Origin: an uncultured Gammaproteobacteria bacterium
GTDB lineage: Bacteria > Patescibacteriota > Patescibacteriia > Magasanikbacterales > UBA922
Length of the DNA: 64,000 bases
Reading direction: 5' to 3'
Assembly: GCA_964345045.1 (NCBI GenBank)
Contig: CAYFPM010000002.1
Location: 140,330-204,329, forward strand
In this document: one piece after another, positions 1,562-36,507 of the stretch
Layout: the number at the start of each line of letters is the position of its first letter
Position numbering within the stretch: the first letter of the stretch is position 1
The notes under the pieces: model-generated
What the model was told of the DNA's origin: nothing
What the model saw: the letters and a program-made list of their open reading frames with translations, nothing else
Databases searched by the model: none
Position numbers and translations under genes: made by a program

Positions 1562-1577
1562 AAAGTATACCAAAAAT

Positions 1578-9011: not shown

Positions 9012-9016
9012 AGTTA

Positions 9017-9460: not shown

Positions 9461-9462
9461 AC

Positions 9463-10188: not shown

Positions 10189-10321
10189 ACAAATAAATCA
10201 ATTCCCTTGCCCTGTTATTAATATTAAGGGCAAAGTATAAAATAAATATTTTTTAAACACTCATTAAATCTAATTCAATCCCTTTTCTGCGGAATCTTTA
10301 TAAATCAATGAAATCAGTGTT

Positions 10322-10360
10322 TAAAAAACCAAACCTGATTACAAGCATACACCAGGTTTA
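10322..10360 (-). terminator. intrinsic terminator after pilin paralog 4
   Basis: Minus-strand hairpin aaacctg...caggttt followed by a U-run (an A-run on the plus strand at 10323-10328). Confidence 0.55.
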
Positions 10361-10372
10361 GCCTGCCTATTA

Positions 10373-10744
10373 TTACGAACCACCTAATCTTCCAGTAACA
10401 AACACAGTGATTGCATAAGCTGATACTACTATAACCAGACCAATAATAGTACTGACTATAACTTTTTGCGCTTTTTGAACTTGTTCTTCGTTGCCACGAG
10501 CTGTCATCCAAAGATAACCTCCATAAACCATTAAGAGCAAAAATATAATACCCACCAGTGTAAGCGCTGCGTTTATAATTCTACCAGTAGCAGTTTCCAG
10601 ATCCCGAACATCGTCTACCCCGGCTCTACTACCAACATTTTCTAGTGGACTACCACCACCAAAAGCATCTTGTAGACCACCAGCCAAAGTCACACTAGGA
10701 AAAAGTAATAACGCAGTTAAAATTATTATTGAAAATTTTTTCAT
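10373..10744 (-). CDS. pilin-like secreted protein, TrbC/VirB2-like core (paralog 4)
   Basis: Start at MKKFSII. Core LTLVGIIFLLLMVYGGYLWMTARGNEEQVQKAQKVIVSTIIGLVIVVSAYAI. Confidence 0.6.
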   Translation of the reverse strand: MKKFSIIILTALLLFPSVTLAGGLQDAFGGGSPLENVGSRAGVDDVRDLETATGRIINAALTLVGIIFLLLMVYGGYLWMTARGNEEQVQKAQKVIVSTIIGLVIVVSAYAITVFVTGRLGGS

Positions 10745-10758
10745 ATAGCTTAATAATA

Positions 10759-11127
10759 TCAATTTGTAAGTCTACCGACAAATAGTGTAATAGCATAAGC
10801 CATTACTACCACAGCTGCCCCAATTATAGCAGCTATTACAGTTTTTTTACCCTTTTCTATTCTTTCTTCGCTACCTCTAGCTGTCATCCATATAAAACCA
10901 CCATAAATAGTAAGAATAAAGAAAAATAATCCTACAAGCGAAATCCCCGCACGTAGTCCATCGGCGACAATGTTTGTGACACTAGATCTTTCTACTCCAG
11001 CTCTCCCAGCTACGTTTTCGGTAAAACCAGTGGCATTATTTATTTTATAACCAGCCAAAACAATATTTGGCAGAAGCCAAAAAGCCAAGACTAAAGTATA
11101 AAACAAATGATTAACAATCTTGGGCAT
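10759..11127 (-). CDS. pilin-like secreted protein (paralog 5)
   Basis: Core ISLVGLFFFILTIYGGFIWMTARGSEERIEKGKKTVIAAIIGAAVVVMAYAI. Confidence 0.6.
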   Translation of the reverse strand: MPKIVNHLFYTLVLAFWLLPNIVLAGYKINNATGFTENVAGRAGVERSSVTNIVADGLRAGISLVGLFFFILTIYGGFIWMTARGSEERIEKGKKTVIAAIIGAAVVVMAYAITLFVGRLTN

Positions 11128-11129
11128 AA

Positions 11130-11693
11130 TTAATTACAATTGGAAGCCGATATATTTGGGTTCACAGTAGCTGTTAAGCCAGGACCTCCCTGACACAAAC
11201 TGCTAGCATTACTTGGAAAATAAGGACCTCTTACACATTGAACTGCTCCACCTGTAGCTCCAGTGGTACAAACCACACAACAACCAGCGTCTACCGCCGT
11301 AGTCCCAGCTCCAGGTGCTGGGGTTGTTGGTTGCGTAGCTGTACCTACACTTTGGAATACAAATCTGGTAATAGCATAAGAAGCAATCACCAAAATAAGA
11401 CCAATAATGGCAGCTGTCACCGTACTAAGTGCTTTTTTACTTATTTCTTCATTGCCTCTGGCTAGCATCCAACTAATACCCGCGTAGATCATAAGTATAA
11501 AAAACAGAACCCCGATTAGAGTAAGGCCAGCGCCAATTACATTTCCTACAATATCGGCTAGACTCCCCCTAGCTGTGGTATCTAGCCCAGATTCCTCTGC
11601 AGTTTGTTCCAATCCATAACCAGCCAAGGCCAAAGACGGAAAAGCTACAGCCAAACCAGCCAAGAAACCAAACAAATAATTTTTCTTTTTCAT
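11130..11693 (-). CDS. pilin-like protein with a Cys-rich C-terminal domain (paralog 6)
   Basis: Core LTLIGVLFFILMIYAGISWMLARGNEEISKKALSTVTAAIIGLILVIASYAI. Tail ...GCCVVCTTGATGGAVQCVRGPYFPSNASSLCQGG...SNCN. Confidence 0.6.
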   Translation of the reverse strand: MKKKNYLFGFLAGLAVAFPSLALAGYGLEQTAEESGLDTTARGSLADIVGNVIGAGLTLIGVLFFILMIYAGISWMLARGNEEISKKALSTVTAAIIGLILVIASYAITRFVFQSVGTATQPTTPAPGAGTTAVDAGCCVVCTTGATGGAVQCVRGPYFPSNASSLCQGGPGLTATVNPNISASNCN

Positions 11694-11704
11694 ATAATTA
11701 AAAA

Positions 11705-12319
11705 TTAAGAACCAGCGGCAATACAACAAACATTATTACGTCCTCCGGGACAAACACCTGTTTCTATAGTGGCCGGGTCACACGAATTTCTTTCCTGACA
11801 TCTATAATTAGGGTTAGTGTCACCAAAGGTAATTGTACAAAATGTTTGACATCTACCAGCAACACAAGCAGTCTGTGGACCACAGTCCGTATCGGCTGTA
11901 CAACTAGCCCCAGGAGCTCCAGCAGTAGCACCAGGTGCCCCACCAGAAGTAGTCCCTCCCTCGACTGTACCAAATACAAACCGAGTAATAGCATAAGCAG
12001 ACAATACTATAATAAGACCAACAATCGCAGAAACAATAATTTTTAGCCCTTTCATAGCTTGTTCATTGTTGCCATGAGAAGTCATCCAAGTAACTCCACC
12101 GTATATAGTAAGAATAAAAAATAGTACTCCTACAAAAGACAATGCTCCACCCAAAAATCTACCGGTAGCCGTAGGGATATCCCCAAATTTTTGCAAACCA
12201 GATCTACTAGAAACTAGTTCTAATCCATACTCATCGGCAGCCATAGTTGGAGGCAAAAACAAAAACATCCCTAGAAAAAAAGCCGACAAAAATGAAACTA
12301 TAAATATTTTTTTAGGCAT
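11705..12319 (-). CDS. pilin-like protein with a Cys-rich C-terminal domain (paralog 7)
   Basis: Core LSFVGVLFFILTIYGGVTWMTSHGNNEQAMKGLKIIVSAIVGLIIVLSAYAI. Tail has 10 or more Cys (CTADTDCGPQTACVAGRCQTFC...). Confidence 0.6.
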   Translation of the reverse strand: MPKKIFIVSFLSAFFLGMFLFLPPTMAADEYGLELVSSRSGLQKFGDIPTATGRFLGGALSFVGVLFFILTIYGGVTWMTSHGNNEQAMKGLKIIVSAIVGLIIVLSAYAITRFVFGTVEGGTTSGGAPGATAGAPGASCTADTDCGPQTACVAGRCQTFCTITFGDTNPNYRCQERNSCDPATIETGVCPGGRNNVCCIAAGS

Positions 12320-12329
12320 GGATCAAAAA

Positions 12330-12716
12330 TTATAGGGTATAACCAGTAGTTGCTCTATAAATATTGCTAAGAACAAAACTGGTTACTGCATAAGCGCTTA
12401 AAATTATAATAAGACCAATTACTGCTGCCCACAAAGTTTTTTTAGCTTTGGTGATACTTTCTTCGTTTCCTCCAGCAGTCATCCACATAAAACCGGCATA
12501 CAATATAACCCCCAAAGAGATGACTCCCAACAAACTAAGAAAAACTTGAATTATTGTGCCAACCGAATTTCTCAAATCACGATCTCCCAAACCACTAAAT
12601 TTGCCATATTCTGTGCCTAGCAAATCTGCTCCGGCCAAAACGGGATTTATTTGTAAAATAAAAAAACCGAAAGCTACAAAAGTTAAAAAAACTATGATTT
12701 GCTTGGTATTTTTCAT
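12330..12716 (-). CDS. pilin-like secreted protein (paralog 8)
   Basis: Start at MKNTKQIIVFL. Core FLSLLGVISLGVILYAGFMWMTAGGNEESITKAKKTLWAAVIGLIIILSAYAV. Confidence 0.55.
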   Translation of the reverse strand: MKNTKQIIVFLTFVAFGFFILQINPVLAGADLLGTEYGKFSGLGDRDLRNSVGTIIQVFLSLLGVISLGVILYAGFMWMTAGGNEESITKAKKTLWAAVIGLIIILSAYAVTSFVLSNIYRATTGYTL

Positions 12717-12824
12717 AAAGATTGATTTTGGTGCAAAAGAAACAAAAATTATCTCTTTAGCACCACCATCAAAATACAAAGGGCAGAGATCTCCACGTGG
12801 GGTTAGACCCCTGCCCAATGTAAG

Positions 12825-13244
12825 TTAGAATGTTACGGATTGTCCGGCACCTGCTGTAGTACCAGTGGCAATAGCCAACTGATTTAGCACGAAACGTGCA
12901 ATAGCAAAGGCACTCAAGATAATAGCCAAACCAATGATTCCAGCAAAGATTCTCTTGCGAGCTTCGGCAACTTTTTCTTCGTTACCACCAGCTGTCATCC
13001 ATTGAAAACCACCAGCCAAGATAATTACCAATGCAACGATACCCAAAAGGCTAAGTGCTACACGGATAATTTGACCGATAGTGTCACGGATATCTTGGTT
13101 TCCAAGTCCACTAGTTGTACCGTATTCTAGACCGAATACAGTAGCACCAGCGTGAGCAGAAGGAACTAGAAATACACCCATAAGAAGCACGGCAACAGCA
13201 ACCCAAGCGAGACGGTATTTGGCGACTGTGTTTATCCAATACAT
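12825..13244 (-). CDS. short pilin-like protein with a strong Shine-Dalgarno site, candidate major subunit (paralog 9)
   Basis: 139 aa. Core ALSLLGIVALVIILAGGFQWMTAGGNEEKVAEARKRIFAGIIGLAIILSAFAI. Upstream GGAGGTGAGACT-ATG is the strongest RBS in the cluster. Confidence 0.6.
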   Translation of the reverse strand: MYWINTVAKYRLAWVAVAVLLMGVFLVPSAHAGATVFGLEYGTTSGLGNQDIRDTIGQIIRVALSLLGIVALVIILAGGFQWMTAGGNEEKVAEARKRIFAGIIGLAIILSAFAIARFVLNQLAIATGTTAGAGQSVTF

Positions 13245-13345
13245 AGTCTCACCTCCCTTCCGTTATAAATGTTTTTATTCATATAGCAATAGTATACGTG
13301 AATAAGCCTAGTTTTACAAAATAGATGTGGACAGTGATATAGGGT

Positions 13346-13416
13346 TTAGGCAACAGGCATTAGTAACTAGAAAAACACTATTGCCTATTCCCTATTCCCT
13401 ATTGCCTGTTGCCTAA
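13346..13416. repeat. intergenic palindromic element ttaggcaacaggcat ... attgcctgttgcctaa (family member b)
   Basis: 15-nt inverted repeat. The centre contains tactattgcc and three cctattcc direct repeats. Confidence 0.55.
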
Positions 13417-14210
13417 CTACCAGTAAGCCCACGGATAACTGTATTCAAAATAGCATAGGCCGAAAATATAACAGCCAACCCGATTACCGCATAAAGCATG
13501 GTATTGGTTCCTTTTTTTACTCTTTCTGGATTTCCTGCCGAAGTAAGCCACATTACTCCCCCAGCAAAAAAGACTAACAAAGTAATAGATCCAATCACAG
13601 CCATAGCATTTCTAATCACATCGGCTACAATTACTCGCAAATCTGTTTTTTCTGGATCACTCCCCAAAGGATTTTTTAAACAAAAAACTCCCGGATCATC
13701 ACATCTGTCTTTGGTTGTCCCAGCTCCACCGGCACTCTCGGTTCCTTCTGCCAGAGTACAACCTAGTGAAAAATTAACAGATTGCCCGGCAGAACCAACG
13801 GAAACAGTCTGCGATATGCTAGATGTTTCACAGGTGTTAGCATCGAGACTTACAGAAGCAGCTACATTTGGGTTAGCCATAATAGCAGCCGGAGCGCCGG
13901 CTTGTTGGACTTGGCTACACCCAGCATCCTTGGCAGCAGCAAACGCCGAGGCAATAGTCTGATTTAGATCCAAACTAGATCCCAAAGCAGTGTTGTTGGT
14001 AAAGGCAGCATCATTACAAGCTGGAGTAGTGCTTTTTATACTAGTAACACAACGACAGACCTCGGCTGCCTGGGCTGGGTTTGGTGACAGAAGACTGGAA
14101 AAAAATATAGCCCCCAAAACAAATACAAATAAATTTATCTGTTTTATTGCCACCCTTTGGGTGATCAGCCGAAGGCTGGCTTTATTACTTTTTTGCTTTT
14201 TTGTTTTCAT
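13413..14210 (-). CDS. secreted Cys-containing protein with a C-terminal TrbC/VirB2-like pilin core (paralog 10, permuted domain order)
   Basis: Signal peptide, variable ectodomain, then VIRNAMAVIGSITLLVFFAGGVMWLTSAGNPERVKKGTNTMLYAVIGLAVIFSAYAI at the C-terminus. Confidence 0.55.
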   Translation of the reverse strand: MKTKKQKSNKASLRLITQRVAIKQINLFVFVLGAIFFSSLLSPNPAQAAEVCRCVTSIKSTTPACNDAAFTNNTALGSSLDLNQTIASAFAAAKDAGCSQVQQAGAPAAIMANPNVAASVSLDANTCETSSISQTVSVGSAGQSVNFSLGCTLAEGTESAGGAGTTKDRCDDPGVFCLKNPLGSDPEKTDLRVIVADVIRNAMAVIGSITLLVFFAGGVMWLTSAGNPERVKKGTNTMLYAVIGLAVIFSAYAILNTVIRGLTGS

Positions 14211-14219
14211 ACAATTAAC

Positions 14220-15071
14220 CTAAAATCTAAAGACTTCCTCTACACCCAAACTGTCTAATAAGAAATTAACTAATAGATAGGCACTTAGCGAAATCGTTAC
14301 CCCTATTATAGCAGCCACTAGAATTTGTTGCCCTTGTTTAAATTTTTCTGGGTTGCCAAAAGCAGTTACCATTGTAACACCACCATAAACAAACATAACA
14401 AAAGCCACCACTCCAAGTAAACTAAACACTCTGGCTGAATAATTTAAAACCAAAATAAGCAAATCATCTACATCACGACAAGTTCCACTAATAGCACAAG
14501 CCGGCAAAAGACTTCCATCTTCGGCTGTATAACCAGCACTAAGACTTGATTCCAATATGGTTATACAAACATTATCACTCCAACCACAAGCCGAGGATCT
14601 TTCACAAGTAGTAGAATCTCTAATATCTCTACAAATATTGCCATCTGCCAAAGAATAACAAGCATTGTTTACCCAAAAACAACTGCCTTGGTTGCCCCCA
14701 CTCTCACACTGTGATCTGTCTAGCTCCGGGCACTTTACAATAGTTTCTACAAATTTGTCTCTACATCTAATATGCCCTAGACAATCTATTTCTCTTTCTC
14801 TTATCAAATCACAAGTTTCAAAACCTTCTCTTCTGGATCTTATACAATTCTTTTTTACTTCTGTAGTTTTGCAAGGACTGGTTTGCTTTATACTACAACT
14901 GTTAACTCTAAATTCTGTATCATGTCCTCTTTTTATCTCTTCTATACAACACTGTGCCGCACTAGCACTATCTACCTGCAAAAAATAAGAAAAAAATAAA
15001 ACAAAAACAAATATGCCAAATCTGTTAAAACGTTTTAATGATTTCATGCTTTCATGATTTAATGATTTCAT
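14220..15071 (-). CDS. secreted Cys-rich protein with a C-terminal pilin core (paralog 11)
   Basis: About 20 Cys in the ectodomain. C-terminus VFSLLGVVAFVMFVYGGVTMVTAFGNPEKFKQGQQILVAAIIGVTISLSAYLLVNFLLD. Confidence 0.55.
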   Translation of the reverse strand: MKSLNHESMKSLKRFNRFGIFVFVLFFSYFLQVDSASAAQCCIEEIKRGHDTEFRVNSCSIKQTSPCKTTEVKKNCIRSRREGFETCDLIREREIDCLGHIRCRDKFVETIVKCPELDRSQCESGGNQGSCFWVNNACYSLADGNICRDIRDSTTCERSSACGWSDNVCITILESSLSAGYTAEDGSLLPACAISGTCRDVDDLLILVLNYSARVFSLLGVVAFVMFVYGGVTMVTAFGNPEKFKQGQQILVAAIIGVTISLSAYLLVNFLLDSLGVEEVFRF

Positions 15072-15083
15072 GTTTTAATATTT

Positions 15084-16196
15084 TTAAAATGGTCTAAAAA
15101 AATCTATTACACCAAAAGCGTCTAACAAGAAATTGACCAACAAGTAAGCGCTAAAAACTATTACCAAACCAACTACCGAAGCAACCAAGACATTAACCCC
15201 TTTTTTAAATTTTTCTGGATTACCAAAAGATGTAATCATAGTGATACCGCCTACCAAAAAACTAATAAAGGCAAGTAAACCAGCAAAACCAAACGCCCAA
15301 GTAGCATAACCAAGTTGCTGCTGCAAAATATCGTTCAAACTATCGCAAGTACCATCGTGACCACAAGGAGGAAAAGCTCCTGGTCTACTAAAATCTATAT
15401 TGCCCGACAAACCAGATTGGAGCAAGGTGTTGCATTTGCCAGTATCTTCATTCCACTTGCAAACTTTACTGCCAGCTCCACCATCACAAAGATCTTTGCT
15501 TCTCAATTTGAAACAGAGATCATTATTTTGTCTAGATTCACACTTGTTTTCAAAAACAAAACAAGAAGCCAAAGGACAGCTAGCAGCACTATGATCTAGG
15601 CAATTGATGGTTCCGCTTATCAAAACTTCATCTGAAAAACCTATAAAATATAGATATCTACCTCCATTTACCGCCGGGGTAGTGTATCTCACCCTAGAAT
15701 TACAACTTTGATTTGGAACTGAAACTGTTTTTTGTAATTTGTAAGAAACATTATCCAAAGTTTGTTTGTAAGCAAATCCAGCCACGTTATTTCGCCACCA
15801 GCCGGCAGTTTGAAAAACACCAGCCGAGCAGTAAGTAATTTCTTCGTTTACTAACCATTTCCCAGCACTATTAAATTCTATCCCCGTAGCCGTATTTAAT
15901 TCTTGCAATGCTCCAATAGTTTTTAGTTGATCATAACTAACGGTTTGGTCGTTTTGATCTACCAAAACACAAAAACTAAAATTAGGAATTGGTTCAAAAT
16001 TTGGATTACCGTTGTCATTGTTAGCTGCTACAAATACTGCATATCTTTTGCCACTGGGAGGAGTTGGGCAGTTAACATTGTAATCCGATTGAGCCAAGCT
16101 AGGAGAAGGAAATAAAAAGAAAATAAAAATCAAAAAAACCAGCTTGCTAAAATATTTTCTTATTTTTTGTTTTTTTAAATTTTTTGTTTTTAGCAT
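15084..16196 (-). CDS. secreted Cys-rich protein with a C-terminal pilin core (paralog 12)
   Basis: C-terminus FGFAGLLAFISFLVGGITMITSFGNPEKFKKGVNVLVASVVGLVIVFSAYLLVNFLLDAFG closely resembles paralog 11. Confidence 0.55.
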   Translation of the reverse strand: MLKTKNLKKQKIRKYFSKLVFLIFIFFLFPSPSLAQSDYNVNCPTPPSGKRYAVFVAANNDNGNPNFEPIPNFSFCVLVDQNDQTVSYDQLKTIGALQELNTATGIEFNSAGKWLVNEEITYCSAGVFQTAGWWRNNVAGFAYKQTLDNVSYKLQKTVSVPNQSCNSRVRYTTPAVNGGRYLYFIGFSDEVLISGTINCLDHSAASCPLASCFVFENKCESRQNNDLCFKLRSKDLCDGGAGSKVCKWNEDTGKCNTLLQSGLSGNIDFSRPGAFPPCGHDGTCDSLNDILQQQLGYATWAFGFAGLLAFISFLVGGITMITSFGNPEKFKKGVNVLVASVVGLVIVFSAYLLVNFLLDAFGVIDFFRPF

Positions 16197-17740: not shown

Positions 17741-17800
17741 ATTTAGAAAATAGGCAACAGGCAGGAGGCAATAGTATTTTTTTCAGTTTTACTATTGCCT
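17741..17800. repeat. intergenic palindromic element ggcaggaggcaatagta ... tactattgcctcctgcc (family member c)
   Basis: 17-nt perfect inverted repeat around a T-run. Bidirectional terminator-like. Confidence 0.6.
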
Positions 17801-17822
17801 CCTGCCTAACCCCTACATCCTA

Positions 17823-20743: not shown

Positions 20744-20775
20744 TACTCCCTGTTGCCTCCTGCCTACCCCCTCCC
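20744..20775. repeat. half-copy of the ggcaggaggca palindromic element (family member d)
   Basis: Contains tgttgcctcctgcctaccccctcc. The tgcctaccccct tail also occurs at 36487. Confidence 0.4.
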
Positions 20776-20781
20776 AACTAT

Positions 20782-21409: not shown

Positions 21410-23197
21410 TTATTGAGATACCAAATCTACAGTCATTGATAAATTACCATTAACATCTACTTGACTGGTTTTTGTTTGATAACCGGTTTTGGAAACTTCT
21501 ACAGCATAGCTAGTAGCGGACAAACTTCCAAAATAAGCTTGCCCTGGTGGGGTACAACTGGTGGTATAAGTAAGGGTAAAATCGGACAAAGTGGGGGTAG
21601 TAGAAACTGTATCTGTGGTTAGATAAGTTTTGTATCTTAGGTATCTGTCGCCATCGTGTACACTGCTCACAACCGGAGTAGTTTGATCATAGTATGTCAA
21701 AGCCGTCCCATCTGGACCAAAATAATCCCAACTAGTTGGGGTAGTAGTAACACTGGTGGCCACCTGAAAACGAAGAGAAGTGCTGCCTGTTTCTGGAGGT
21801 TGAGCCAAAGGTTGCCAATCAATATTGACCAAATTGGCAGAAACTCCCAAATCAAATATAGAAGATTCTAACTCTGCACTTGGTACATAATTTTGACCAA
21901 CCAATCTTAATTTCAAATCTCCTGCCGGACTAGAATTTTCTACTCCACCATCGTCACTCCAATATTTGGTGTTGTCTACCATGTTCAATTGATTGCCTCC
22001 ACCAGACCAATCGGTTTGTCTTATATATCCAACTCCTGTTTGCAAAGATTGATTGTAGCTAGTCGAAGTTACAGTAACATTGGCATTGGCCACTGGTTGA
22101 CCGGTCACACTATCGAGCACATTTACCAAAAGTGAATTGGCTGTTTGGGGACCTAGTATCAAATCTACATCTTGCACAGTGTTGGCCGCAATAGCAATAG
22201 GTAGTGGAGGAATTGTCCCGAGCAAATCATAGCCAGTTGGTCGAATTCCATAAGTATCCCAAATCAAATTGGAAAAAGTATAAAGCCCGGAACTATCGGT
22301 AGAAACAGTGGTGCTCACCATTCTAATATCCGGACTAGTACCAAGTAATTTGGAACCGGCAAAAGAGACTGGCACACTACCAACTGGTTGGCAACTACTA
22401 TCTTGGGTAGACAAATTTATTTGTGAAACCAAATCTATCCAAAAACTAATAGAGCTAACTGACTGAGCGATTACAGAAGTTGGCGGTTTGGTAGGGTTGG
22501 GATTTTGTAGGCTAGAGGTAACGGTTTTGTCGGCTGTATAACCGGCTTTGTGTACGGTTAAATGGTATTCTCCTACACCTTCTGGCAAATCTACTATATT
22601 TAACTCTCCGGCATTGTTGGTAACATCGGTAATGTCTACAGTAGAGCTGGTAGAAGTAGCCCATACTCTTACTGTGGCCCCCTGAACTGGTTGGGCTAGT
22701 GAATCGTAAACCGATATAAACAAAGCTCCATTCCATTGATTGCCTTCTAGATATTTTGGTCCAATATAAGAACTAATTATAATTGGATCAGTCTGGCCGC
22801 AACGCACACAGATTACTGATAATTCTACTAATTTGTAATCTGCGGGAGCGGTATCATTTGGCGAACCGCCAATAGTTCCATCAAAAGCGTCGTCAATATT
22901 TCTAATGGTTCTGGTTATTTCAAAATCAATTCCATTTCTGGTGGTGGTTACAGTTCTTTCGAGGACACCGCTAGGACTACCGTTTACTATACCCACATCA
23001 TTAAAAGGAATATTTCTAATTATTTCTATTTGTTCGTTCAAAATTCCGGTTTCTATAATTCTTAACCTAGAGTTATAAACTACTTTGAAAATAAATTGAA
23101 GAGAAGAATATATGCCAATGGCAAAAACCAAAAACACTCCCAAAGTTACGATTATTTCTACGAGAGAATATCCTTTTTTGTTGACAGGCCAATGCAT
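21410..23197 (-). CDS. large type IV minor pilin-like protein with Ig/carboxypeptidase-regulatory-like repeats
   Basis: N-terminus KKGYSLVEIIVTLGVFLVFAIGI (prepilin-like, E at +5). About 560 aa of Thr/Ser/Val-rich beta-repeat sequence. Confidence 0.55.
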   Translation of the reverse strand: MHWPVNKKGYSLVEIIVTLGVFLVFAIGIYSSLQFIFKVVYNSRLRIIETGILNEQIEIIRNIPFNDVGIVNGSPSGVLERTVTTTRNGIDFEITRTIRNIDDAFDGTIGGSPNDTAPADYKLVELSVICVRCGQTDPIIISSYIGPKYLEGNQWNGALFISVYDSLAQPVQGATVRVWATSTSSTVDITDVTNNAGELNIVDLPEGVGEYHLTVHKAGYTADKTVTSSLQNPNPTKPPTSVIAQSVSSISFWIDLVSQINLSTQDSSCQPVGSVPVSFAGSKLLGTSPDIRMVSTTVSTDSSGLYTFSNLIWDTYGIRPTGYDLLGTIPPLPIAIAANTVQDVDLILGPQTANSLLVNVLDSVTGQPVANANVTVTSTSYNQSLQTGVGYIRQTDWSGGGNQLNMVDNTKYWSDDGGVENSSPAGDLKLRLVGQNYVPSAELESSIFDLGVSANLVNIDWQPLAQPPETGSTSLRFQVATSVTTTPTSWDYFGPDGTALTYYDQTTPVVSSVHDGDRYLRYKTYLTTDTVSTTPTLSDFTLTYTTSCTPPGQAYFGSLSATSYAVEVSKTGYQTKTSQVDVNGNLSMTVDLVSQ

Positions 23198-23278
23198 AAG
23201 TATTTAAGCAAAAAAATTTAGCAATTTTTGCTTTGTTTTGTTTACATTATATCACAAGCGGATTAAGCTTGCTTATGG

Positions 23279-23307
23279 TTGACAAAAAGTTAATTATAGA
23301 GTAAGAT
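23279..23307 (+). promoter_or_regulatory. sigma70-like promoter TTGACA-17-TAAGAT for Zn-ribbon gene A
   Basis: TTGACA at 23279-23284, a 17-nt spacer and TAAGAT at 23302-23307. Confidence 0.45.
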
Positions 23308-23326
23308 CTTACATCGATCTTTTTTT

Positions 23327-23394
23327 CACTATTGGGCACTATCTTTATCAAACTTTGGTAACGATTGTGCCCAATAGCGGATTAGGCAACCGCA
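23327..23394 (+). promoter_or_regulatory. conserved leader element A (dyad TTATCAAACTTTGGTAA plus gtgcccaa hairpin)
   Basis: About 62 of 66 nt are identical to the leader at 24836-24893. It lies between the promoter and the ATG. The dyad is at 23345-23361. An inverted repeat attgggcac/gtgcccaat flanks it. Confidence 0.45.
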
Positions 23395-23411
23395 ATTTTT
23401 AAGGAGACAGG

Positions 23412-23801
23412 ATGCAAGCTTGTTTGATTTGTGGGGCGAATACCCCCACCAGCGACGACTTCGAGAGAAACAACGACGACGACTTCGCACGTTTGCAAGT
23501 GTTCAACGGGAATGAACATCGATTCGTCGTGATCTGTGGTGGTTGCTGCGGGGCTCCGGAACCTGTCCTGCTGGGGGTGAACTTGACTGGCCCCGTGTCT
23601 ACAACCGGTTTCAAGATCAAAATCCCCGGGCAAATCCCCAGTCACACCAACATTGCATGGACGCTCGAAGACATCTTGCGCCGCATGATCCAAGGAGCCA
23701 GGGTCCCCGAGCTGACCGATGCGCACATCGCGAAGTTGCTCGAGGCCTTCGGGATCGCCCCCTCCCCCACCCAGCCCCATACTCTCCGTTGGCTGGCGTA
23801 A
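23412..23801 (+). CDS. small Zn-ribbon protein A (129 aa), GC-rich foreign-like gene
   Basis: Motifs CLIC...CGGCC. RBS AAGGAG 6 nt upstream of the ATG. GC-rich codon third positions. Paralog of the ORF at 24910. Confidence 0.5.
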   Translation: MQACLICGANTPTSDDFERNNDDDFARLQVFNGNEHRFVVICGGCCGAPEPVLLGVNLTGPVSTTGFKIKIPGQIPSHTNIAWTLEDILRRMIQGARVPELTDAHIAKLLEAFGIAPSPTQPHTLRWLA

Positions 23802-23919
23802 AGTAGCGGCCTGCTACAGCGGTAGCCCATATACGCACCAGAGTGCGGGCGTACCAAAGGTACCCTGCGCTCGCCCCTATCTCAATTCTTTTTAAAATTA
23901 AAAGTAATTGAAATAAACA

Positions 23920-23948
23920 AAATCCAACACTACGTTGGATTTTGTTTT
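23920..23948 (+). terminator. intrinsic terminator
   Basis: Hairpin atccaac-actac-gttggat followed by TTTGTTTT. Confidence 0.7.
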
Positions 23949-23979
23949 GCAAAAATTTTTGAACCAAAACTAAATACAC

Positions 23980-24008
23980 TTGACAACCCTGCCAGAAAAT
24001 GATAAACC
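23980..24008 (+). promoter_or_regulatory. putative promoter (TTGACA, weak -10)
   Basis: TTGACA at 23980-23985. Candidate -10 elements are GATAAA or TAAACC. Confidence 0.3.
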
Positions 24009-24039
24009 AAAACCAAGTTCACTCTGTAGGAGGAGTACT

Positions 24040-24600
24040 ATGAATAACTTGGAACTGGCCGACTTCGGCATCTCCGGGACCCCCGGCTTTGCCCAGATCG
24101 CCTTCCTCACAACACCCACCCCTACCCAGAACCTTCATGGCATGCTTCGAGCCTTTTTGGCACCAGAGGACGGACTCTGCGACAATCCCCGAGACCTTCA
24201 AGCCAAGATGCTTCGGCTCTCTCGAGACCTCGGCAGACACACCCTGATGGATGAGTGTACTCAAAATTGCTGGGGCAAGCTCTATTACGATAGACGTGTG
24301 AAAGAGCGCAACTTCAGACTATTGATGATTGTCTTCCCGGATCCACTGGTTGCCCTAGGGGTGGCCTTGGACGCCGCCAGCGAGGATCGCGGAGGACTAG
24401 GCAGAATGATAGTGCCCGACGAGGATGTCCGGGCGCAAACCACTGGACTCGATCGTAACAACTACAATTGGTCCAGACCCGAACGCACTGTCCGCCATCG
24501 AAAAGACGGTGCCACCTTCGTTTACCCAGGTGGCAAAAGGCTTCGAATCGACTGGCCCGAACGGCCACCGATGCGTACCCGCTGGCTCAGATCTTTGTAG
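24040..24600 (+). CDS. hypothetical protein (186 aa), GC-rich island gene
   Basis: AGGAGG is 7 nt upstream of the ATG. Translation MNNLELADFGISGTPGF... . No family recognised. Confidence 0.45.
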   Translation: MNNLELADFGISGTPGFAQIAFLTTPTPTQNLHGMLRAFLAPEDGLCDNPRDLQAKMLRLSRDLGRHTLMDECTQNCWGKLYYDRRVKERNFRLLMIVFPDPLVALGVALDAASEDRGGLGRMIVPDEDVRAQTTGLDRNNYNWSRPERTVRHRKDGATFVYPGGKRLRIDWPERPPMRTRWLRSL

Positions 24601-24689
24601 GTAGCCACCGCGCTACCAACCCTAGCGACGAGTTACCCCCTCGTCCTCCCATTCCAATTCTTTTTAGCTTTAGAAATAATTGGACTGTA

Positions 24690-24723
24690 CAAAAACCGAC
24701 TGTGTAAGTCGGTTTTTGTTTTG
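24690..24723 (+). terminator. intrinsic terminator
   Basis: Hairpin aaaccgact-gtgta-agtcggttt followed by TTGTTTTG. Confidence 0.7.
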
Positions 24724-24755
24724 TAAAAATAGTTCTACTAACTTTGGCAAAACAC

Positions 24756-24784
24756 TTGACAAAAACCAAACAATTCTATAACCT
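24756..24784 (+). promoter_or_regulatory. sigma70-like promoter (TTGACA ... TATAAC)
   Basis: TTGACA at 24756-24761. TATAAC at 24777-24782 (15-nt spacer) or TAACCT (17-nt spacer). Confidence 0.45.
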
Positions 24785-24835
24785 AAGTCGTTGTTCTTTG
24801 TAGGAGAAATGCTCAGCATTTATTTCGCCGTTTGA

Positions 24836-24893
24836 CACTGTCTTTATCAAGCTTTGGTAAAGATTGTGCCCAACAGCGGACTTGGCACCCGCA
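24836..24893 (+). promoter_or_regulatory. conserved leader element B (dyad TTATCAAGCTTTGGTAA plus gtgcc/ggcac hairpin)
   Basis: Paralogous to leader A. The dyad is at 24844-24860. A hairpin GTGCC-N13-GGCAC follows. Confidence 0.45.
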
Positions 24894-24909
24894 TCGACCC
24901 GAGGTAATC

Positions 24910-25242
24910 GTGAAAACTTGCATCGTCTGTAATACCCAAACCGTGAAAACCAGTGGCAGTGGATGTGCAGATCCAAGGCTGGAAATCTACAACGGAGGAA
25001 CCGAAGTGTCTCGGTGCATCTGCCCCAAGTGCTGCCAGGCTCGCGAGCCCATCGTGCTCACGGTCTCAAGCTCTGGAGAAGTCGCCCAGCAGCGCATCGG
25101 CAGTGAGACCAACACCGTAAACCGCCTGCCGCTCGCTCAGGTTCTCGCCGCTCTCCAACAAGCAGAGCACATCCACCTCACCGGCAATGAGGTCGCCCAG
25201 ATCACCCGTCACTTCAACGCCCCTCTAGCAGCTGCCAGCTAG
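24910..25242 (+). CDS. small Zn-ribbon protein B (110 aa), paralog of A
   Basis: GTG start after GAGGT. Motifs CIVC...CICPKCC. A shared C-terminal pattern (LT..E.A.I...F) with protein A. Confidence 0.45.
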   Translation: MKTCIVCNTQTVKTSGSGCADPRLEIYNGGTEVSRCICPKCCQAREPIVLTVSSSGEVAQQRIGSETNTVNRLPLAQVLAALQQAEHIHLTGNEVAQITRHFNAPLAAAS

Positions 25243-25352
25243 ATGAGCAACGAACAGAGCGGTGGATACAGCCATACAACTTGGCTCACTCCACCGCTCG
25301 ATCCCAAAAAAGTTATAAATTAAAAAACCGGCTTAGACCGATTTTTTTGTTT

Positions 25353-25685
25353 TTATTTGGCTGTAAAAATTGCCAAGAAAAAAGCAAACAGAAACGAAAG
25401 AATATATGCTGCTACAAAGTTAAGCCAATGAGTTTTTAAAAATTGCGAATTGAAAATAATAAGCACCACGCTAAACAAAATAGCTGCCAAAGCTCCGTAG
25501 ATTCCCCCGATAAGGAATTCTTTGGCCATGGCTTTGTTTTGCATAGTTACCAAAACATAAGAGACTGCAAACACAATTGGAATCCCTCCAATAGCACCGG
25601 CCAAACGTGGTCCAGAGTATTTGGCAATTAGCAAAATAATAGCTGTAACTGCCGCCGAAGCCAAACTTTTTAAAACAATATCCAT
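25353..25685 (-). CDS. small integral membrane protein (about 4 TM helices)
   Basis: 110 aa and hydrophobic throughout. AT-rich native composition inside the GC-rich neighbourhood. Confidence 0.5.
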   Translation of the reverse strand: MDIVLKSLASAAVTAIILLIAKYSGPRLAGAIGGIPIVFAVSYVLVTMQNKAMAKEFLIGGIYGALAAILFSVVLIIFNSQFLKTHWLNFVAAYILSFLFAFFLAIFTAK

Positions 25686-25686
25686 A

Positions 25687-26160
25687 TTAACTCAAAACAT
25701 CATTAATTAAATTATCTACCATTTGTTCTGCTTTTTGCTGCAATTCTTCGTGGCTTAGCACCACCCCTTGATTTTTTAGTTCTGCTATTTGTTCGCGCAC
25801 CAGATCTTCTCGCATTTTTATTATTTCTTCTCTGTATTCGGCAATCTGTTTTTTTAATTCTGCTACCTTGGTTTTGTCCCTAGCTACAGAGGCATCTTCG
25901 CCATCTTCAACCAGTTGCAACTGTTGCCTAATTTTTTTTATAGCTGCCGTTACTTGCTGAATATGTAACAAAATATTCTGCATTTGTTTTTGGCTAGATT
26001 TTATTTCTTTGGTTAGGTAGTCTGCTCTTTCCATGGCAGCAGCTTTTTTCAATTCTGGATCTACTTCGGCTTCTTTGCTTTCTTTTTGTTCTACCCCAAC
26101 TTCGCGCGCTTCTAGCGAACGACGTCTCAGTTCTCGTTCTCTTTCTTTTTCAAAAGACAT
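25687..26160 (-). CDS. coiled-coil protein (157 aa), E/K/Q-rich
   Basis: Heptad-like sequence. No family recognised. Confidence 0.45.
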   Translation of the reverse strand: MSFEKERERELRRRSLEAREVGVEQKESKEAEVDPELKKAAAMERADYLTKEIKSSQKQMQNILLHIQQVTAAIKKIRQQLQLVEDGEDASVARDKTKVAELKKQIAEYREEIIKMREDLVREQIAELKNQGVVLSHEELQQKAEQMVDNLINDVLS

Positions 26161-26273
26161 AGTGGAAGAAGTAAGTTTTAAATTATAAGAAATAAGATTT
26201 GACTATTATATAACATTAAGAAAAGCAAGCCAAAGCCATAACCTTGACTTTTACTTACTTTTGATATAGGTTT

Positions 26274-26714
26274 ATGAACGTGAACGGAGATACCGCCCGC
26301 CGGTTTGTGTGGGCAATCAACCATTCTTGCATGATTCACATGCATTTTTTCGGAGGGGAAGAATATCTTTCGCTGACGAAGTCGCCAGGAGGTATGACTT
26401 ACACAGCCAAACTCGACGACGGCAAGCCCCTCCTGACCATCGAAGGTCACTGGGATGACACCAAAAATGGAGAACACGACTTGAGTGGAGTGTACAAAGC
26501 CAACCTCACTAGCGAAAGGAGCGGCACCCGATTTGTAACATTGTGGGGGTGTACTAACTACACTTTCGTGAATAGTTACCCAGCAAGACTGGAAGGACAC
26601 CCCTTAAAGCGAGGGAAAACTATGACCGCATGGGATTACCTGGCTAGATTTGGCTACCCCCTCGACGTATGCCCCAAAAAAGCCCGTCGAGACAATTCAA
26701 AAACAGCTTTGTAG
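26274..26714 (+). CDS. hypothetical protein (146 aa), GC-rich gene with a leaderless start
   Basis: TTGACT ... TATAGG lies immediately upstream of the ATG. GC-rich codon usage. A terminator follows. Confidence 0.45.
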   Translation: MNVNGDTARRFVWAINHSCMIHMHFFGGEEYLSLTKSPGGMTYTAKLDDGKPLLTIEGHWDDTKNGEHDLSGVYKANLTSERSGTRFVTLWGCTNYTFVNSYPARLEGHPLKRGKTMTAWDYLARFGYPLDVCPKKARRDNSKTAL

Positions 26715-26732
26715 AAAAGCTGTTTTTGTTTT
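26700..26732 (+). terminator. intrinsic terminator
   Basis: Hairpin aacagcttt-gtaga-aaagctgtt followed by TTTGTTTT. The stop codon lies within the loop. Confidence 0.7.
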
Positions 26733-26829
26733 ATACAATTCTACAAAATATTAATATCATCACTACTTTCAAATAAGATCCAAAATTTGTTTAAATGTTT
26801 GTATGTTTAAATGCTTAAATATTTATACC

Positions 26830-26857
26830 AAAAAAGAGCCAATAGGCTCTTTTTTTC
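26830..26857. terminator. bidirectional intrinsic terminator (serves rpsR on the minus strand)
   Basis: Hairpin agagcc-aata-ggctct flanked by an A5 run and a T7 run. Confidence 0.7.
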
Positions 26858-26934
26858 ATAACAGAATTCTTATCTGTGTAATCTACACAAATCAGCCTGC
26901 CCCGATCAAAGTATCGGGGTGAAATCTGTACTTC

Positions 26935-35392: not shown

Positions 35393-35459
35393 AAAAACAC
35401 TAAACCAATAGTGTTTTTATGATTTTATGATTTAATGTTTTCTTGTTTTAATGATTAAA

Positions 35460-36179
35460 TCATTTCAGCCAAAGATTATCTACTACCTGACCAACAGCAT
35501 AACCAACCACAGCAGCCAACCCTGCCAAAGTTACCATCTCCATACCAGCTTTGATCCAATTCCTCTTGGAGAATTTGGCGGTGTATACTCCTAGCAAAAA
35601 CAAACCAACCAAAGTAATAGCAATAGACAAAGCAATCGCTGTATAAATAGGAAAGATAAAATAAGCTACAAGTGGAATCGCCCCGCCAAAAATATAAGAA
35701 ATCCCCATAACAGATCCGTTTTTTAACGGCTCTTCCAATTCACTTGGGAAAATTTTCAATTCATGATAAGCCATTTCTTGCAAAAACAAATCCGGTTTTT
35801 GCGAAGCTTCTTCGGCCATTTTCTTGGACAAATCTTTTGACCAACCATCTTCTTCGTACATCTCTATTAATTCTTGTTTTTCCTCTTCTGGATATTTTTC
35901 TAATTCTTGTTTTTCTTCAAACAATTTCCTCTCGTCTACTGCTCGCACCGACTTGCTAGACAAGTACGACCCCACTCCCATAGAAATTGATTCTACCGAA
36001 ACTACAACCAATCCTACCAAGATAGTGGTAAAAGGATCCTGTGTTGCAGCGGCTACACCAGTAATGGCCCCAAGGGTAGACACCATACCATCTTCCATCC
36101 CAAAGACCAATTCCCGTATAGTAGAAGCCTTGGTACTGTTGGTGTGGTGGATGTACTCTGGGTTATGCTCTACAGGCAT
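35460..36179 (-). CDS. VIT1/CCC1-family iron/manganese transporter
   Basis: Motif ELVFGMEDGMVSTLGAITGVA. Central acidic loop and C-terminal TM helices. Confidence 0.65.
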   Translation of the reverse strand: MPVEHNPEYIHHTNSTKASTIRELVFGMEDGMVSTLGAITGVAAATQDPFTTILVGLVVVSVESISMGVGSYLSSKSVRAVDERKLFEEKQELEKYPEEEKQELIEMYEEDGWSKDLSKKMAEEASQKPDLFLQEMAYHELKIFPSELEEPLKNGSVMGISYIFGGAIPLVAYFIFPIYTAIALSIAITLVGLFLLGVYTAKFSKRNWIKAGMEMVTLAGLAAVVGYAVGQVVDNLWLK

Positions 36180-36486
36180 ATTTTTAAACTTATATAGAAA
36201 AAATTACTTCACAAGTTAACAAACCAAAGATCTAGTTTATCAAATCTGCGTAATCCAAAAAAATCAGTGCAATCAATGTTATATATAGTACACCTTACAC
36301 ACAAAAATTTAAACCCACCTATTCGGTGGGGTTGTCTAGGGTGCTCTAAACCCTGGGTTAGAAAACTTTGTTTTTAATTTTTATTTTTTAATACATCATT
36401 TTGGATAAAGATAGTTAAACATACAAACACGCGTGTTAAGAATTATTTGTAAGAAATAAAGCAAAAAACAATCTACTCACTACAAC

Positions 36487-36502
36487 CTACTGCCTACCCC
36501 CT
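36487..36502. repeat. fragment ctactgcctaccccct of the ggcaggaggca palindromic element (family member e)
   Basis: Matches the tgcctaccccct tail seen at 20757. Confidence 0.35.
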
Positions 36503-36507
36503 AATAT

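What the first reader, a model, noticed from the sequence alone, without database searches (positions are those of the whole stretch)
23327..23394. About 60-nt non-coding leader conserved between the two Zn-ribbon paralogs, more conserved than their coding sequences, with a TTATCAAR-C-TTTGGTAA dyad
Leader A (23327-23394) and leader B (24836-24893) are about 62 of 66 nt identical, although the downstream proteins are highly diverged. Each contains an imperfect palindrome TTATCAAA/TTTGGTAA with half-sites TTATCAAA and TTACCAAA. The palindrome is followed by a gtgccc..ggcac hairpin, all between the -10 element and the start codon. Noncoding sequence under stronger conservation than the coding sequence argues for a function. 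It could be an operator for a dimeric repressor, or a 5' UTR RNA switch or attenuator shared by the two cassettes.
Basis: seen in the sequence. Interest (0 to 1): 0.7.

Follow-up and report, generated by a model that had tools for sequence, protein, structure and literature searches.

The report
Conserved hairpin leader of two orphan genes
Two very diverged copies of a small zinc-ribbon gene, in a foreign-looking gene islet of an uncultivated Magasanikbacteria-like bacterium, share a 75-base untranslated leader that folds into a long hairpin; it is probably a private regulatory element of these two genes, and nothing like it was found in any public collection searched.

Summary
The repeat is real but overstated. 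It is still a sharp island of conservation. The promoter and 3'UTR flanks align at chance level (48-51%). The coding sequences are 46% identical by codon, and third positions are close to saturation.

The TTATCAAA-C-TTTGGTAA dyad is not a free-standing site. It is the tip of one long hairpin (A 24/27 pairs, z -6.95; B 23/27, z -2.7), followed by a small GCGG/CCGC hairpin.

The element keeps its distance to the start codon (60 vs 59 nt) but not to the predicted promoter (45 vs 67 nt). Conservation is asymmetric and extends about 30 nt beyond the palindrome. I read it as an mRNA-level cis element acting on stability or translation, possibly bound by the zinc-ribbon proteins themselves. A DNA operator is not excluded.

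No third copy, protein homologue or Rfam match exists in anything searched, so covariation cannot be tested. The genes sit in a 3.7-kb strain-specific islet of GC-rich orphan cassettes built like phage 'morons'. Interest is modest.

The parts
23320..23394 (+). Leader A: the conserved 75-nt block in the 5' UTR of zinc-ribbon ORF A
   Evidence: Direct repeat D15, 83% identical to 24819-24893. Covariance-model hit of 103 bits.
24819..24893 (+). Leader B: the conserved 75-nt block in the 5' UTR of zinc-ribbon ORF B
   Evidence: Same repeat. Covariance-model hit of 100 bits.
23325..23381 (+). Long hairpin P1 of leader A. 24 of 27 possible pairs, 3-nt loop. The tip is the dyad TTATCAAA-C-TTTGGTAA at 23345-23361.
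   Evidence: MFE -29.3 kcal/mol for 23320-23398, z -6.95, 0 of 200 shuffles as stable. Inverted repeat I10 with 24-nt arms, 88% complementary. Pair table.
24824..24880 (+). Long hairpin P1 of leader B. 23 of 27 pairs; the lower stem is interrupted by 1x1 mismatches; the apical stem is 11 bp. Dyad at 24844-24860.
   Evidence: MFE -22.6 kcal/mol, z -2.7. Pair table.
23377..23393 (+). Short hairpin P2 of leader A (GCGG-AUUAGGCAA-CCGC). It overlaps the foot of P1.
   Evidence: RNAalifold consensus. All A/B differences in this part fall in unpaired positions.
24876..24892 (+). Short hairpin P2 of leader B (GCGG-ACUUGGCAC-CCGC)
23279..23307 (+). Predicted sigma-70-type promoter of cassette A (TTGACA, 17 nt, TAAGAT)
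   Evidence: 10 of 12 consensus positions matched.
24756..24784 (+). Predicted promoter of cassette B (TTGACA, 17 nt, TAACCT), inside an intergenic module homologous to the one before ORF2
   Evidence: Read from the sequence. Homology of the intergenic modules. Not called by the scan.
23412..23801 (+). ORF A: 129-aa orphan protein with CxxC...CxxCC. SD AAGGAGA at 23401-23407.
   Evidence: Frame-specific similarity to ORF B: E 3e-8 in frame +0/+0, at best 0.03 in the other frame pairs. GC3 0.72. The CDS is not unusually structured as RNA, z -0.27.
24910..25242 (+). ORF B: 110-aa paralogue, GTG start, SD GAGG at 24901-24904
   Evidence: RNA z +0.41.
24809..24835 (+). Mini-ORF upstream of leader B only (ATG CTC AGC ATT TAT TTC GCC GTT TGA). 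Its SD and ATG are the homologue of ORF2's SD and ATG. The stop lies in the 5' arm of P1. SD spacing is only about 2 nt, so it may be a relic.
   Evidence: Sequence and alignment of the intergenic modules.
23198..26934 (.). Strain-specific islet that carries the cassettes. It lies between the 595-aa pilin-like gene and rpsR. Contents: cassette A, ORF2 (24040-24600), cassette B, two AT-rich genes on the minus strand (25353-26160) and ORF4 (26274-26714).
   Evidence: In relatives L111 and L112 the pilin-like gene abuts the S18-SSB-S6 gene cluster (S18 itself is not called in L112). In L109 a HinfI-type restriction-modification pair sits at this position.

Best explanation
The 75-nt block is a cis-acting element of the mRNA leader of the two zinc-ribbon genes. 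It was inherited with the gene when the gene duplicated and has been kept by purifying selection.

A short GC hairpin (P2) follows, and the Shine-Dalgarno sequence and start codon come at a fixed 16-17 nt further downstream. I propose that this structure sets the fate of the message after transcription. It could be a double-stranded entry site for RNase III or a barrier to 5' decay. It could also be the binding site of a protein that represses translation; the zinc-ribbon proteins themselves are the obvious candidates.

Shown: the repeat, its excess conservation, the hairpin, its position relative to the start codon, and its restriction to these two genes. Inferred: that it is transcribed (promoters are predicted only), that it acts as RNA, and the identity of any trans-acting factor.
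For: 1. Constraint. The leader is 83% identical, against 46% for the codon-aligned CDS. Third positions are 39% identical against 31% by chance, and both flanks align at random level. The 13 differences are scattered, which does not look like a recent gene-conversion tract.

2. Structure. A folds with z -6.95 and B with z -2.7. 90% of cells are paired, against 29-44% when the partners are slid. There is one compensatory change (A-U to G-C at columns 12/56) and one A-U to G-U change.

3. Position. The centre of the dyad is 60 nt (A) and 59 nt (B) from the start codon, although the linker sequence between them is not conserved (7 of 21). It is 45 and 67 nt from the end of the predicted -10 element.

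4. Extent. Conservation runs about 30 nt 3' of the palindrome through P2. All four differences there lie in unpaired positions.

5. Strand. The apical stem is more stable on the sense strand because of a conserved U-G pair: -4.0 vs 0 kcal/mol in A and -8.5 vs -3.6 in B.

6. Specificity. ORF2, which sits between A and B and shares the same promoter-terminator module, has no such leader. A covariance model finds only these two copies in the window and in seven related loci.

7. Context. Each cassette also carries a significant GC-rich hairpin in its 3' UTR, ahead of a separate AT-rich terminator (z -2.7, -5.8 and -7.3). This fits messages whose ends are protected by structure.
Against: Only two copies exist, so covariation has no power (228 of 500 shuffles).

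Over the whole hairpin the two strands fold equally well (-27.8 vs -26.4 in A, -21.2 vs -22.8 in B). A DNA palindrome therefore fits as well as an RNA hairpin.

Three of the differences in B break pairs and are not compensated. The 5' arm is less conserved than the 3' arm (13/19 vs 18/19). Plain 'keep the hairpin' selection does not predict this.

The Shine-Dalgarno sequence is not part of any conserved pairing (unpaired probability 0.53 and 0.32). A direct translational mechanism is therefore not visible.

Transcription starts are predicted, not mapped. No trans factor is identified: the zinc-ribbon proteins have no homologues and the AlphaFold model is unusable (pLDDT 54).
Confidence: 0.42

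Rival explanations
1. DNA operator. A dimeric DNA-binding protein, either a host factor or the zinc-ribbon proteins themselves, binds the 8-1-8 dyad TTATCAAA-C-TTTGGTAA on double-stranded DNA and blocks elongation or initiation at both cassettes.
For: A near-perfect 17-bp dyad is identical in both copies except for the central-flank base. The palindrome folds equally well on either strand. The apex is the best-conserved symmetric part, 17/19.
Against: The dyad lies about 38 (A) and 60 (B) nt downstream of the predicted starts, not over the promoter, and the distance to the promoter is not kept. Conservation extends asymmetrically for about 30 nt on the 3' side only. The single asymmetry of the dyad (T/G) is a wobble pair on the sense RNA but a mismatch between half-sites. 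There is no third site in 64 kb even with 3 mismatches. No recognisable DNA-binding regulator is encoded in the islet.
Confidence: 0.2
2. No function of its own. The block is similar because of gene conversion between the two leaders, or because it is a relic that happens to evolve slowly.
For: Only two copies exist, in one population, 1.5 kb apart and in direct orientation. There is no independent lineage to show selection.
Against: The flanks on both sides are at random-level identity, so there is no homology to start or extend a conversion tract outside the block. 17% divergence spread over the block is not what a recent conversion leaves. The block coincides with a statistically exceptional hairpin.
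Confidence: 0.13
3. Ligand- or signal-sensing RNA switch. The 3' arm of P1 alternates between pairing with the 5' arm and forming a small 3' structure. That structure would be either GUGCC/GGCA(C) plus GCGG/CCGC, which together have the geometry of an H-type pseudoknot, or P2 alone. In B, translation of the upstream mini-ORF would melt the 5' arm and flip the switch.
For: The mutually exclusive pairings exist in both copies, and every A/B difference in columns 48-75 falls outside the alternative stems. The 3' arm is more conserved than the 5' arm. The mini-ORF stop lies in the 5' arm of B.
Against: The stems are only 4 bp long and invariant, so they are easily chance, and covariation is nil. 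In A the long hairpin is far more stable than any alternative. The mini-ORF is absent from A and has a poor SD spacing. There is no Rfam hit even at E<=10. No conserved terminator or SD-sequestering helix is present as an output.
Confidence: 0.07
4. DNA-level recombination or mobilisation hairpin. The palindrome is the folded single-strand site by which the GC-rich gene modules were inserted behind pre-existing promoter modules, analogous to integron attC sites or to IS200/IS605 subterminal hairpins.
For: The array looks modular. The AT-rich terminator-promoter-SD modules before ORF2 and before B are homologous, and in B the leader-gene module begins right after that module's orphaned SD-ATG. 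The hairpin lies 5-10 nt inside the left edge of the A/B homology. The islet sits at a variable position.
Against: ORF2 has no such hairpin. The 3' UTR hairpins differ in sequence from the 5' one. No RYYYAAC/GTTRRRY cores can be read in the sequence. No transposase, integron integrase or reverse transcriptase lies within 10 kb. The only tyrosine recombinase in the window is 19 kb away, next to a tRNA gene. All 15 contigs of this population that were recovered carry the same arrangement.
Confidence: 0.06

Closest known systems
Autoregulatory mRNA leaders of small nucleic-acid-binding proteins. Examples from my own knowledge: ribosomal-protein leaders, the pseudoknot leader of the phage T4 gene 32 mRNA, and the conserved 5' UTR shared by the cspA-family paralogues of E. 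coli.
   Same: A structured 5' UTR element private to one gene family. It is conserved between paralogues more strongly than the neighbouring sequence and lies at a fixed distance upstream of the ribosome-binding site.
   Different: No binding protein is known here and the proteins are orphans. The Shine-Dalgarno sequence is not in the conserved structure. There is no sequence or Rfam relationship to any of these leaders.
RNase III processing hairpins in 5' leaders. Examples from my own knowledge: the phage T7 R-sites, the lambda N leader, and the rnc and pnp leaders.
   Same: An imperfect double-stranded stem of more than 20 bp with 1x1 mismatches, placed between the transcription start and the ribosome-binding site.
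   Different: Cleavage is untested. No rnc gene was looked for in this genome. The sequence-specific, asymmetric conservation goes beyond what an RNase III site needs.
Palindromic operators of dimeric repressors (17-bp 8-1-8 sites of the Cro/CI type; my own knowledge)
   Same: The length and symmetry of the apical dyad.
   Different: The position is well downstream of the promoter. The palindrome extends to 24-27 nt per arm. There is an extra conserved 3' tail. No regulator gene and no further sites were found.
Phage 'morons': independent transcription units with deviant GC content inserted between conserved genes (PMC3594210, read)
   Same: Each cassette has its own promoter and terminator. 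GC content and GC3 are far from the host's (GC3 0.62-0.72 vs about 0.30). The cassettes are absent from the same position in relatives.
   Different: They lie in a bacterial chromosome between pilus and ribosomal-protein genes, with no phage genes within 10 kb and no phage homologues. This comparison concerns the context of the leader, not the leader itself.

Membership tests
Any Rfam RNA family (riboswitches, leaders, sRNAs) | Match to a curated covariance model | tested here: not met
   No hit on the leaders at gathering score. At E<=10 over 23200-25400, terminator-like chance hits predominate; the only hit overlapping a leader is MIR1027 over 23293-23415 at 17.1 bits against a gathering score of 150.
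Intrinsic-terminator attenuator | GC-rich hairpin directly followed by a U-tract, conserved in both copies, with a competing antiterminator | tested here: not met
   P1 is followed by AUUAGG (A) or ACUUGG (B). P2 is followed by AAUUUUU in A but by AUCGACC in B. The scan calls no terminator in the leaders.
RNA thermometer (fourU / ROSE type) | The Shine-Dalgarno sequence is paired inside the conserved hairpin | tested here: not met
   The SD lies 16-17 nt 3' of the conserved block and is unpaired in the consensus structure. Only non-homologous, weak U-rich pairings are possible.
Riboswitch | Conserved multi-helix aptamer with covariation plus an expression platform, found in many genomes | tested here: inconclusive
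   The architecture is one long hairpin plus a 4-bp hairpin. Only two copies exist, so there is no covariation power. There are no other occurrences.
Operator of a dimeric repressor | Short dyad-symmetric site | tested here: met
   The 8-1-8 dyad is present twice, against 0.14 expected.
Operator of a dimeric repressor | Site overlaps or abuts the promoter it controls; cognate regulator gene nearby; further sites in the regulon | tested here: not met
   The dyad centre is 45 and 67 nt past the -10 element. No recognisable DNA-binding protein is found in the islet. There is no third site in the window.
RNase III substrate | About 20 bp or more of mostly continuous double-stranded RNA | tested here: met
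   A has 24 of 27 pairs and B has 23 of 27.
RNase III substrate | Cleavage by RNase III | not testable with these tools
   Needs an in vitro cleavage assay or mapping of RNA ends.
Integron attC site | Imperfect palindrome 3' of each cassette ORF with RYYYAAC / GTTRRRY cores, and an intI gene with attI and Pc | tested here: not met
   The hairpin is 5' of the ORF and is absent from ORF2. No core motifs can be read in the sequence. No integrase lies within 10 kb. The only tyrosine recombinase is at 3608-4588 beside a tRNA gene.
IS200/IS605-type element or its non-autonomous derivative | Subterminal hairpins at both ends, recognised by a TnpA; multiple copies | tested here: not met
   The 3' UTR hairpins are unrelated in sequence to the 5' hairpin. 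No tnpA-like gene was seen in the parts of the window that were annotated. Only two copies exist, both attached to the paralogous gene.
Moron-like accessory cassette (context only) | Own promoter and terminator, deviant GC content, absent from related genomes at the same position | tested here: met
   definition from PMC3594210.
Moron-like accessory cassette (context only) | Located in a phage or prophage genome | tested here: not met
   The neighbours are pilus, ribosomal-protein and SSB genes. There are no phage family hits.

The most novel reading that the evidence does not exclude
The leader is the RNA (or DNA) operator of a self-contained autoregulatory module. An orphan zinc-ribbon protein would bind the hairpin in front of its own gene, and the whole unit (leader, gene, 3' hairpin) would travel as a GC-rich expression cassette that can be plugged behind AT-rich promoter modules in the reduced genome of a candidate-phyla-radiation bacterium. 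That would be a new nucleic-acid-binding protein family with its cognate site, and a hint at how such genomes acquire and express foreign genes.
Probability: 0.12. Interest if true: 0.55.

Novelty: new member of a known kind. Interest (0 to 1): 0.3.

Why it matters
If the element is a working regulatory leader, it is a clean, minimal case of a cis element that outlives the coding sequence it serves. It would also give a handle on two orphan zinc-ribbon proteins of an uncultivated Patescibacteria lineage that otherwise have no functional lead at all.

The wider context may be more interesting than the leader itself. This is an AT-rich (38% GC) reduced genome expressing a tandem array of GC-rich (GC3 0.62-0.72) orphan genes. 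Each has its own promoter and terminator, and the array sits at a position that in one relative holds a restriction-modification system.

In practice the element is confined to one population, so nothing general can be learnt from it until relatives or expression data appear. The locus also shows an annotation trap. At one cassette the public gene calls for this contig picked the antisense shadow ORF, and at the other they called nothing.

Tried and rejected
1. Further copies of the leader. Exact-pattern scans found no leader copy. Genome contigs, metagenome contigs with two different patterns and viral contigs with the 3'-half pattern returned nothing. The dyad-alone pattern returned 100 matching stretches in viral contigs; I inspected 99 matches in the loci held and none shares the flanks, so they are chance or lie in coding sequence. 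A covariance model of the leader found only the two copies in the window and in seven related loci.

2. Homologues of the proteins. Nothing for ORF A in 5.8 billion proteins. ORF2 finds only itself. A profile of A and B against 1.84 billion representatives gave only four long proteins matched in 7-16 separate stretches each, which I take to be spurious. No hits in PDB sequences, Pfam, PADLOC, PHROGs or NCBIfam, by tblastn in phages or plasmids, or in degenerate-pattern scans of viral and genome collections.

3. Structure prediction of ORF A gave pLDDT 54, too poor for a fold search.

4. Population variants. Every contig carrying the exact neighbouring proteins comes from the same project and is essentially identical to the window: 100% identical, except two records of one contig with a single mismatch.

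5. The idea that the GC-rich islands are structured RNAs rather than genes. Rejected: the CDS z-scores are -0.27 and +0.41, the A/B similarity is frame-specific, and GC3 exceeds GC1, which exceeds GC2.

6. The idea that the leader is a relic or an extension of coding sequence. In B the frame is open from TTG 24832, but in A the same frame has a stop (TAG) and no start codon. The differences are 7 non-synonymous, 1 stop and 1 synonymous (read). Rejected.

7. A small peptide in the leader. The frame ending in TGG TAA has a start codon only in A and no SD. Rejected.

8. Strand asymmetry as a test of RNA against DNA. Only the apical stem favours the sense strand; the whole hairpin does not. Inconclusive.

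9. A literature search for the project accession found nothing.

Full report
WHAT IS THERE

The window is an AT-rich chromosome segment (38% GC). It comes from a Patescibacteria genome whose type IV pilus ATPase is closest, at 74% identity or less, to proteins several of which are named Candidatus Magasanikbacteria or Patescibacteria group bacterium. The source contig is an ENA metagenome assembly of project PRJEB17505.

Between 23200 and 25350 lie three tandem transcription units on the + strand. Each has a TTGACA-17 nt-TAAnnn promoter, a GC-rich ORF (55-65% GC), a GC-rich 3' UTR hairpin (z -2.7 to -7.3) and a separate AT-rich terminator. The terminators are strong after A and ORF2 and weak after B.

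Units 1 and 3 encode the 'zinc-ribbon paralogues': ORF A (23412-23801, 129 aa) and ORF B (24910-25242, 110 aa, GTG start). Unit 2 encodes an unrelated 186-aa protein (24040-24600).

The ORFs are real genes in these frames. A and B are similar only in frame +0/+0 (E 3e-8, against 0.03 at best for any other frame pair). GC3 exceeds GC1, which exceeds GC2 (0.72/0.56/0.46 for A). Host genes have GC3 near 0.30. The coding regions are not unusually structured as RNA (z -0.27 and +0.41).

The public gene calls on this contig picked the antisense shadow ORF (23382-23780, minus strand) instead of ORF A, and called nothing for ORF B. This is why ORF A has not even a self-hit in the protein collections; ORF B was not searched on its own.

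CHECK OF THE OBSERVATION

A gapless direct repeat joins 23320-23394 to 24819-24893 with 62/75 identities (83%). Over the last 58 nt it is 51/58.

The qualitative claim stands and is strong. In global alignments the promoter side is 48% identical, the SD linker 33%, the CDS 56% (46% when aligned by codon) and the 3' UTR 51%. Shuffled controls give 49-51%. Third codon positions are 39% identical against 31% expected by composition. The two genes are therefore old duplicates, or separately acquired homologues, whose neutral sites are saturated. The leader is an isolated island of conservation.

The 19-nt dyad core occurs exactly twice in 64 kb, even when 3 mismatches are allowed, against 0.14 expected.

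ANATOMY

The dyad is not a free-standing element. In leader A the sequence 23325-23343 is the reverse complement, with 3 mismatches, of 23363-23381. The whole 57-nt stretch is one hairpin with the dyad at its tip (inverted repeat I10, 24-nt arms, 88% complementary). The MFE is -29.3 kcal/mol, z -6.95, and 0 of 200 shuffles fold as well. Leader B folds in the same register with more 1x1 mismatches (-22.6 kcal/mol, z -2.7).

Of 27 possible pairs, A forms 24 and B forms 23. Between the copies there is one compensatory change (A-U to G-C), one A-U to G-U change, two positions paired only in B and three paired only in A.

Its proposed partner GGCA(C) lies in the loop of a second small hairpin, GCGG-N9-CCGC, which RNAalifold places in the consensus.

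Conservation is asymmetric: 5' arm 13/19, apex 17/19, 3' arm 18/19, tail through P2 10/13. All four differences 3' of the apex fall in unpaired positions, both in the P1+P2 model and in an alternative pseudoknot-like model.

With two sequences none of this amounts to covariation evidence: 228 of 500 shuffles reach the observed score.

WHERE IT SITS

The centre of the dyad is 60 nt (A) and 59 nt (B) from the start codon, although the intervening linker is unrelated in sequence. It is 45 and 67 nt from the end of the predicted -10 element.

ORF2, which shares a clearly homologous terminator-promoter-SD module with unit B, has a short leader and no hairpin. In unit B the homologue of ORF2's SD-ATG survives as a 8-codon mini-ORF (24809-24835) whose stop lies in the 5' arm of the hairpin. 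Its SD spacing is poor and A has nothing similar, so I treat it as a probable relic.

The leader therefore belongs to the zinc-ribbon gene module, not to the promoter module.

RNA OR DNA?

The apical stem is more stable on the sense strand because of a conserved U-G pair, but the full hairpin folds equally well on both strands. Strand asymmetry does not settle the question.

Three things favour an RNA-level role. The spacing is fixed to the start codon rather than to the promoter. The site lies far downstream of the promoter. Conservation extends well beyond a 17-bp site and only on the 3' side.

Three things stand against a simple 'keep the hairpin' model. There are uncompensated changes in the 5' arm of B. 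The 3' arm is better conserved than the 5' arm. The SD is not in any conserved pairing.

No conserved U-tract follows either hairpin, so a terminator-type attenuator is not supported. No Rfam family matches at gathering score or at E<=10.

COMPARATIVE EVIDENCE

There is none, and that is a result in itself. The leader pattern is absent from the species-representative genomes, from JGI metagenomes with two different patterns and from viral contigs.

The proteins have no homologues by word-indexed search, by exhaustive HMMER with an A+B profile, in the family libraries, in PDB sequences, by tblastn in phages and plasmids, or in degenerate-pattern scans.

All contigs carrying the exact neighbouring proteins are from the same project and are essentially identical to the window: 100% identical, except two records of one contig with a single mismatch.

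In the nearest relatives that could be fetched, the pilin-like gene orthologous to 21410-23197 directly abuts the S18-SSB-S6 gene cluster (L111, L112; S18 itself is not called in L112). In one relative a HinfI-type restriction-modification pair occupies that position (L109). The 3.7 kb from 23198 to 26934 is thus a strain-specific islet at a variable position. The cassettes fit the operational definition of 'morons', that is own promoter and terminator with deviant GC (PMC3594210), except that no phage genes are nearby.

MOST LIKELY MECHANISM

I commit, at about 0.4, to a cis-acting mRNA leader: a long hairpin plus a short hairpin at a fixed distance before the ribosome-binding site. It would control the stability or translation of the two zinc-ribbon messages. 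The most plausible routes are double-strand-specific processing or protection, and binding of a protein, for which the zinc-ribbon proteins themselves are the natural candidates. The N-terminal CxxC...CxxCC half is the better-conserved part of the proteins.

The constraint, the hairpin, the spacing and the gene specificity are shown. Transcription through the element, action as RNA and the trans factor are inferred.

The rivals, in order, are a DNA operator (0.2), no function or gene conversion (0.13), a conformational RNA switch (0.07) and a DNA-level recombination hairpin (0.06).

VERDICT

This is a real, clearly constrained, lineage-private leader element. It is a new family of an ordinary kind, confined to two copies in one population, and it cannot be tested further by comparison. 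Interest is modest (0.3). The surrounding array of GC-rich orphan cassettes in a reduced AT-rich genome is the more unusual feature.

Noticed in passing
window 23198-26934: A strain-specific 3.7-kb islet lies between a pilin-like gene and rpsR. It holds three or four GC-rich orphan genes (GC3 0.55-0.72 against about 0.30 in host genes), each with its own promoter and terminator. Relatives have nothing at this position, or a HinfI-type restriction-modification pair.
   Followed up: partly
window 23382-23780 (-) and 24910-25242 (+): The public gene calls for the source contig annotate the antisense shadow ORF (132 aa) instead of ORF A and call no gene for ORF B. Both proteins are therefore missing from protein databases.
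   Followed up: yes
window 23792, 24135-24138, 24454, 24877, 25248-25251, 25321: Contigs from the sister assemblies of the same project end at these positions, all inside the GC-rich cassette array. This could be GC-dependent coverage loss or strain heterogeneity. The overlapping sequence is identical.
   Followed up: partly
window 23841-23874, 24601-24647, 25257-25299: Each cassette has a significant GC-rich hairpin in its 3' UTR (z -2.7, -5.8, -7.3), followed by a C-rich stretch and then a separate AT-rich terminator. The A and B hairpins share their outer arms (GAG.GCGG ... CGCTC) but differ inside.
   Followed up: partly
window 23850-24045 vs 24620-24820: The intergenic terminator-promoter-SD modules before ORF2 and before cassette B are homologous. 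Their terminator stems differ in sequence but both pair perfectly.
   Followed up: partly
window 1485-1567, 13346-13416, 17744-17822; half copies at 20750-20781 and 36480-36511: A family of GC-rich palindromic intergenic repeats (TAGGCAGGAGGCAAYAG ... CTATTGCCTCCTGCCTA), mostly between pilin-like genes. It looks like a REP-type element or a shared bidirectional terminator.
   Followed up: no
window 8517-16196 (-): A run of paralogous genes, five of which were scanned and match the T4SS_pilin family. The seven or so copies between 9000 and 13250 share conserved 58-74-nt blocks.
   Followed up: no
window 15020-15095 and 35401-35476: Two arrays of an 8-nt periodic repeat (TGATTTCA-like) in intergenic or gene-end positions, 20 kb apart.
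   Followed up: no
window 51487-51613 (+): A SAM-I/IV riboswitch aptamer above the Rfam gathering score (45.6 vs 41.1 bits), upstream of a 310-aa ORF with no Pfam match.
   Followed up: no
window 62550-63242 (-): Another gene that is GC-richer than the host (53% GC, GC3 0.61). It is a DUF3865 / haem-oxygenase-like protein with its own AT-rich promoter region, probably also acquired horizontally.
   Followed up: partly
window 3608-4588 (+), next to tRNA-Arg at 4626-4698: A tyrosine recombinase (Phage_integrase plus SAM-like N-terminal domain) lies immediately upstream of a tRNA gene. It could be a Xer-type housekeeping enzyme or the edge of an integrated element.
   Followed up: no
window 43071-46130 (-): A MutS homologue of 1019 aa with a weak C-terminal DUF968 match (E 2.4e-4, below the Pfam cut-off), which is an unusual domain combination.
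   Followed up: no
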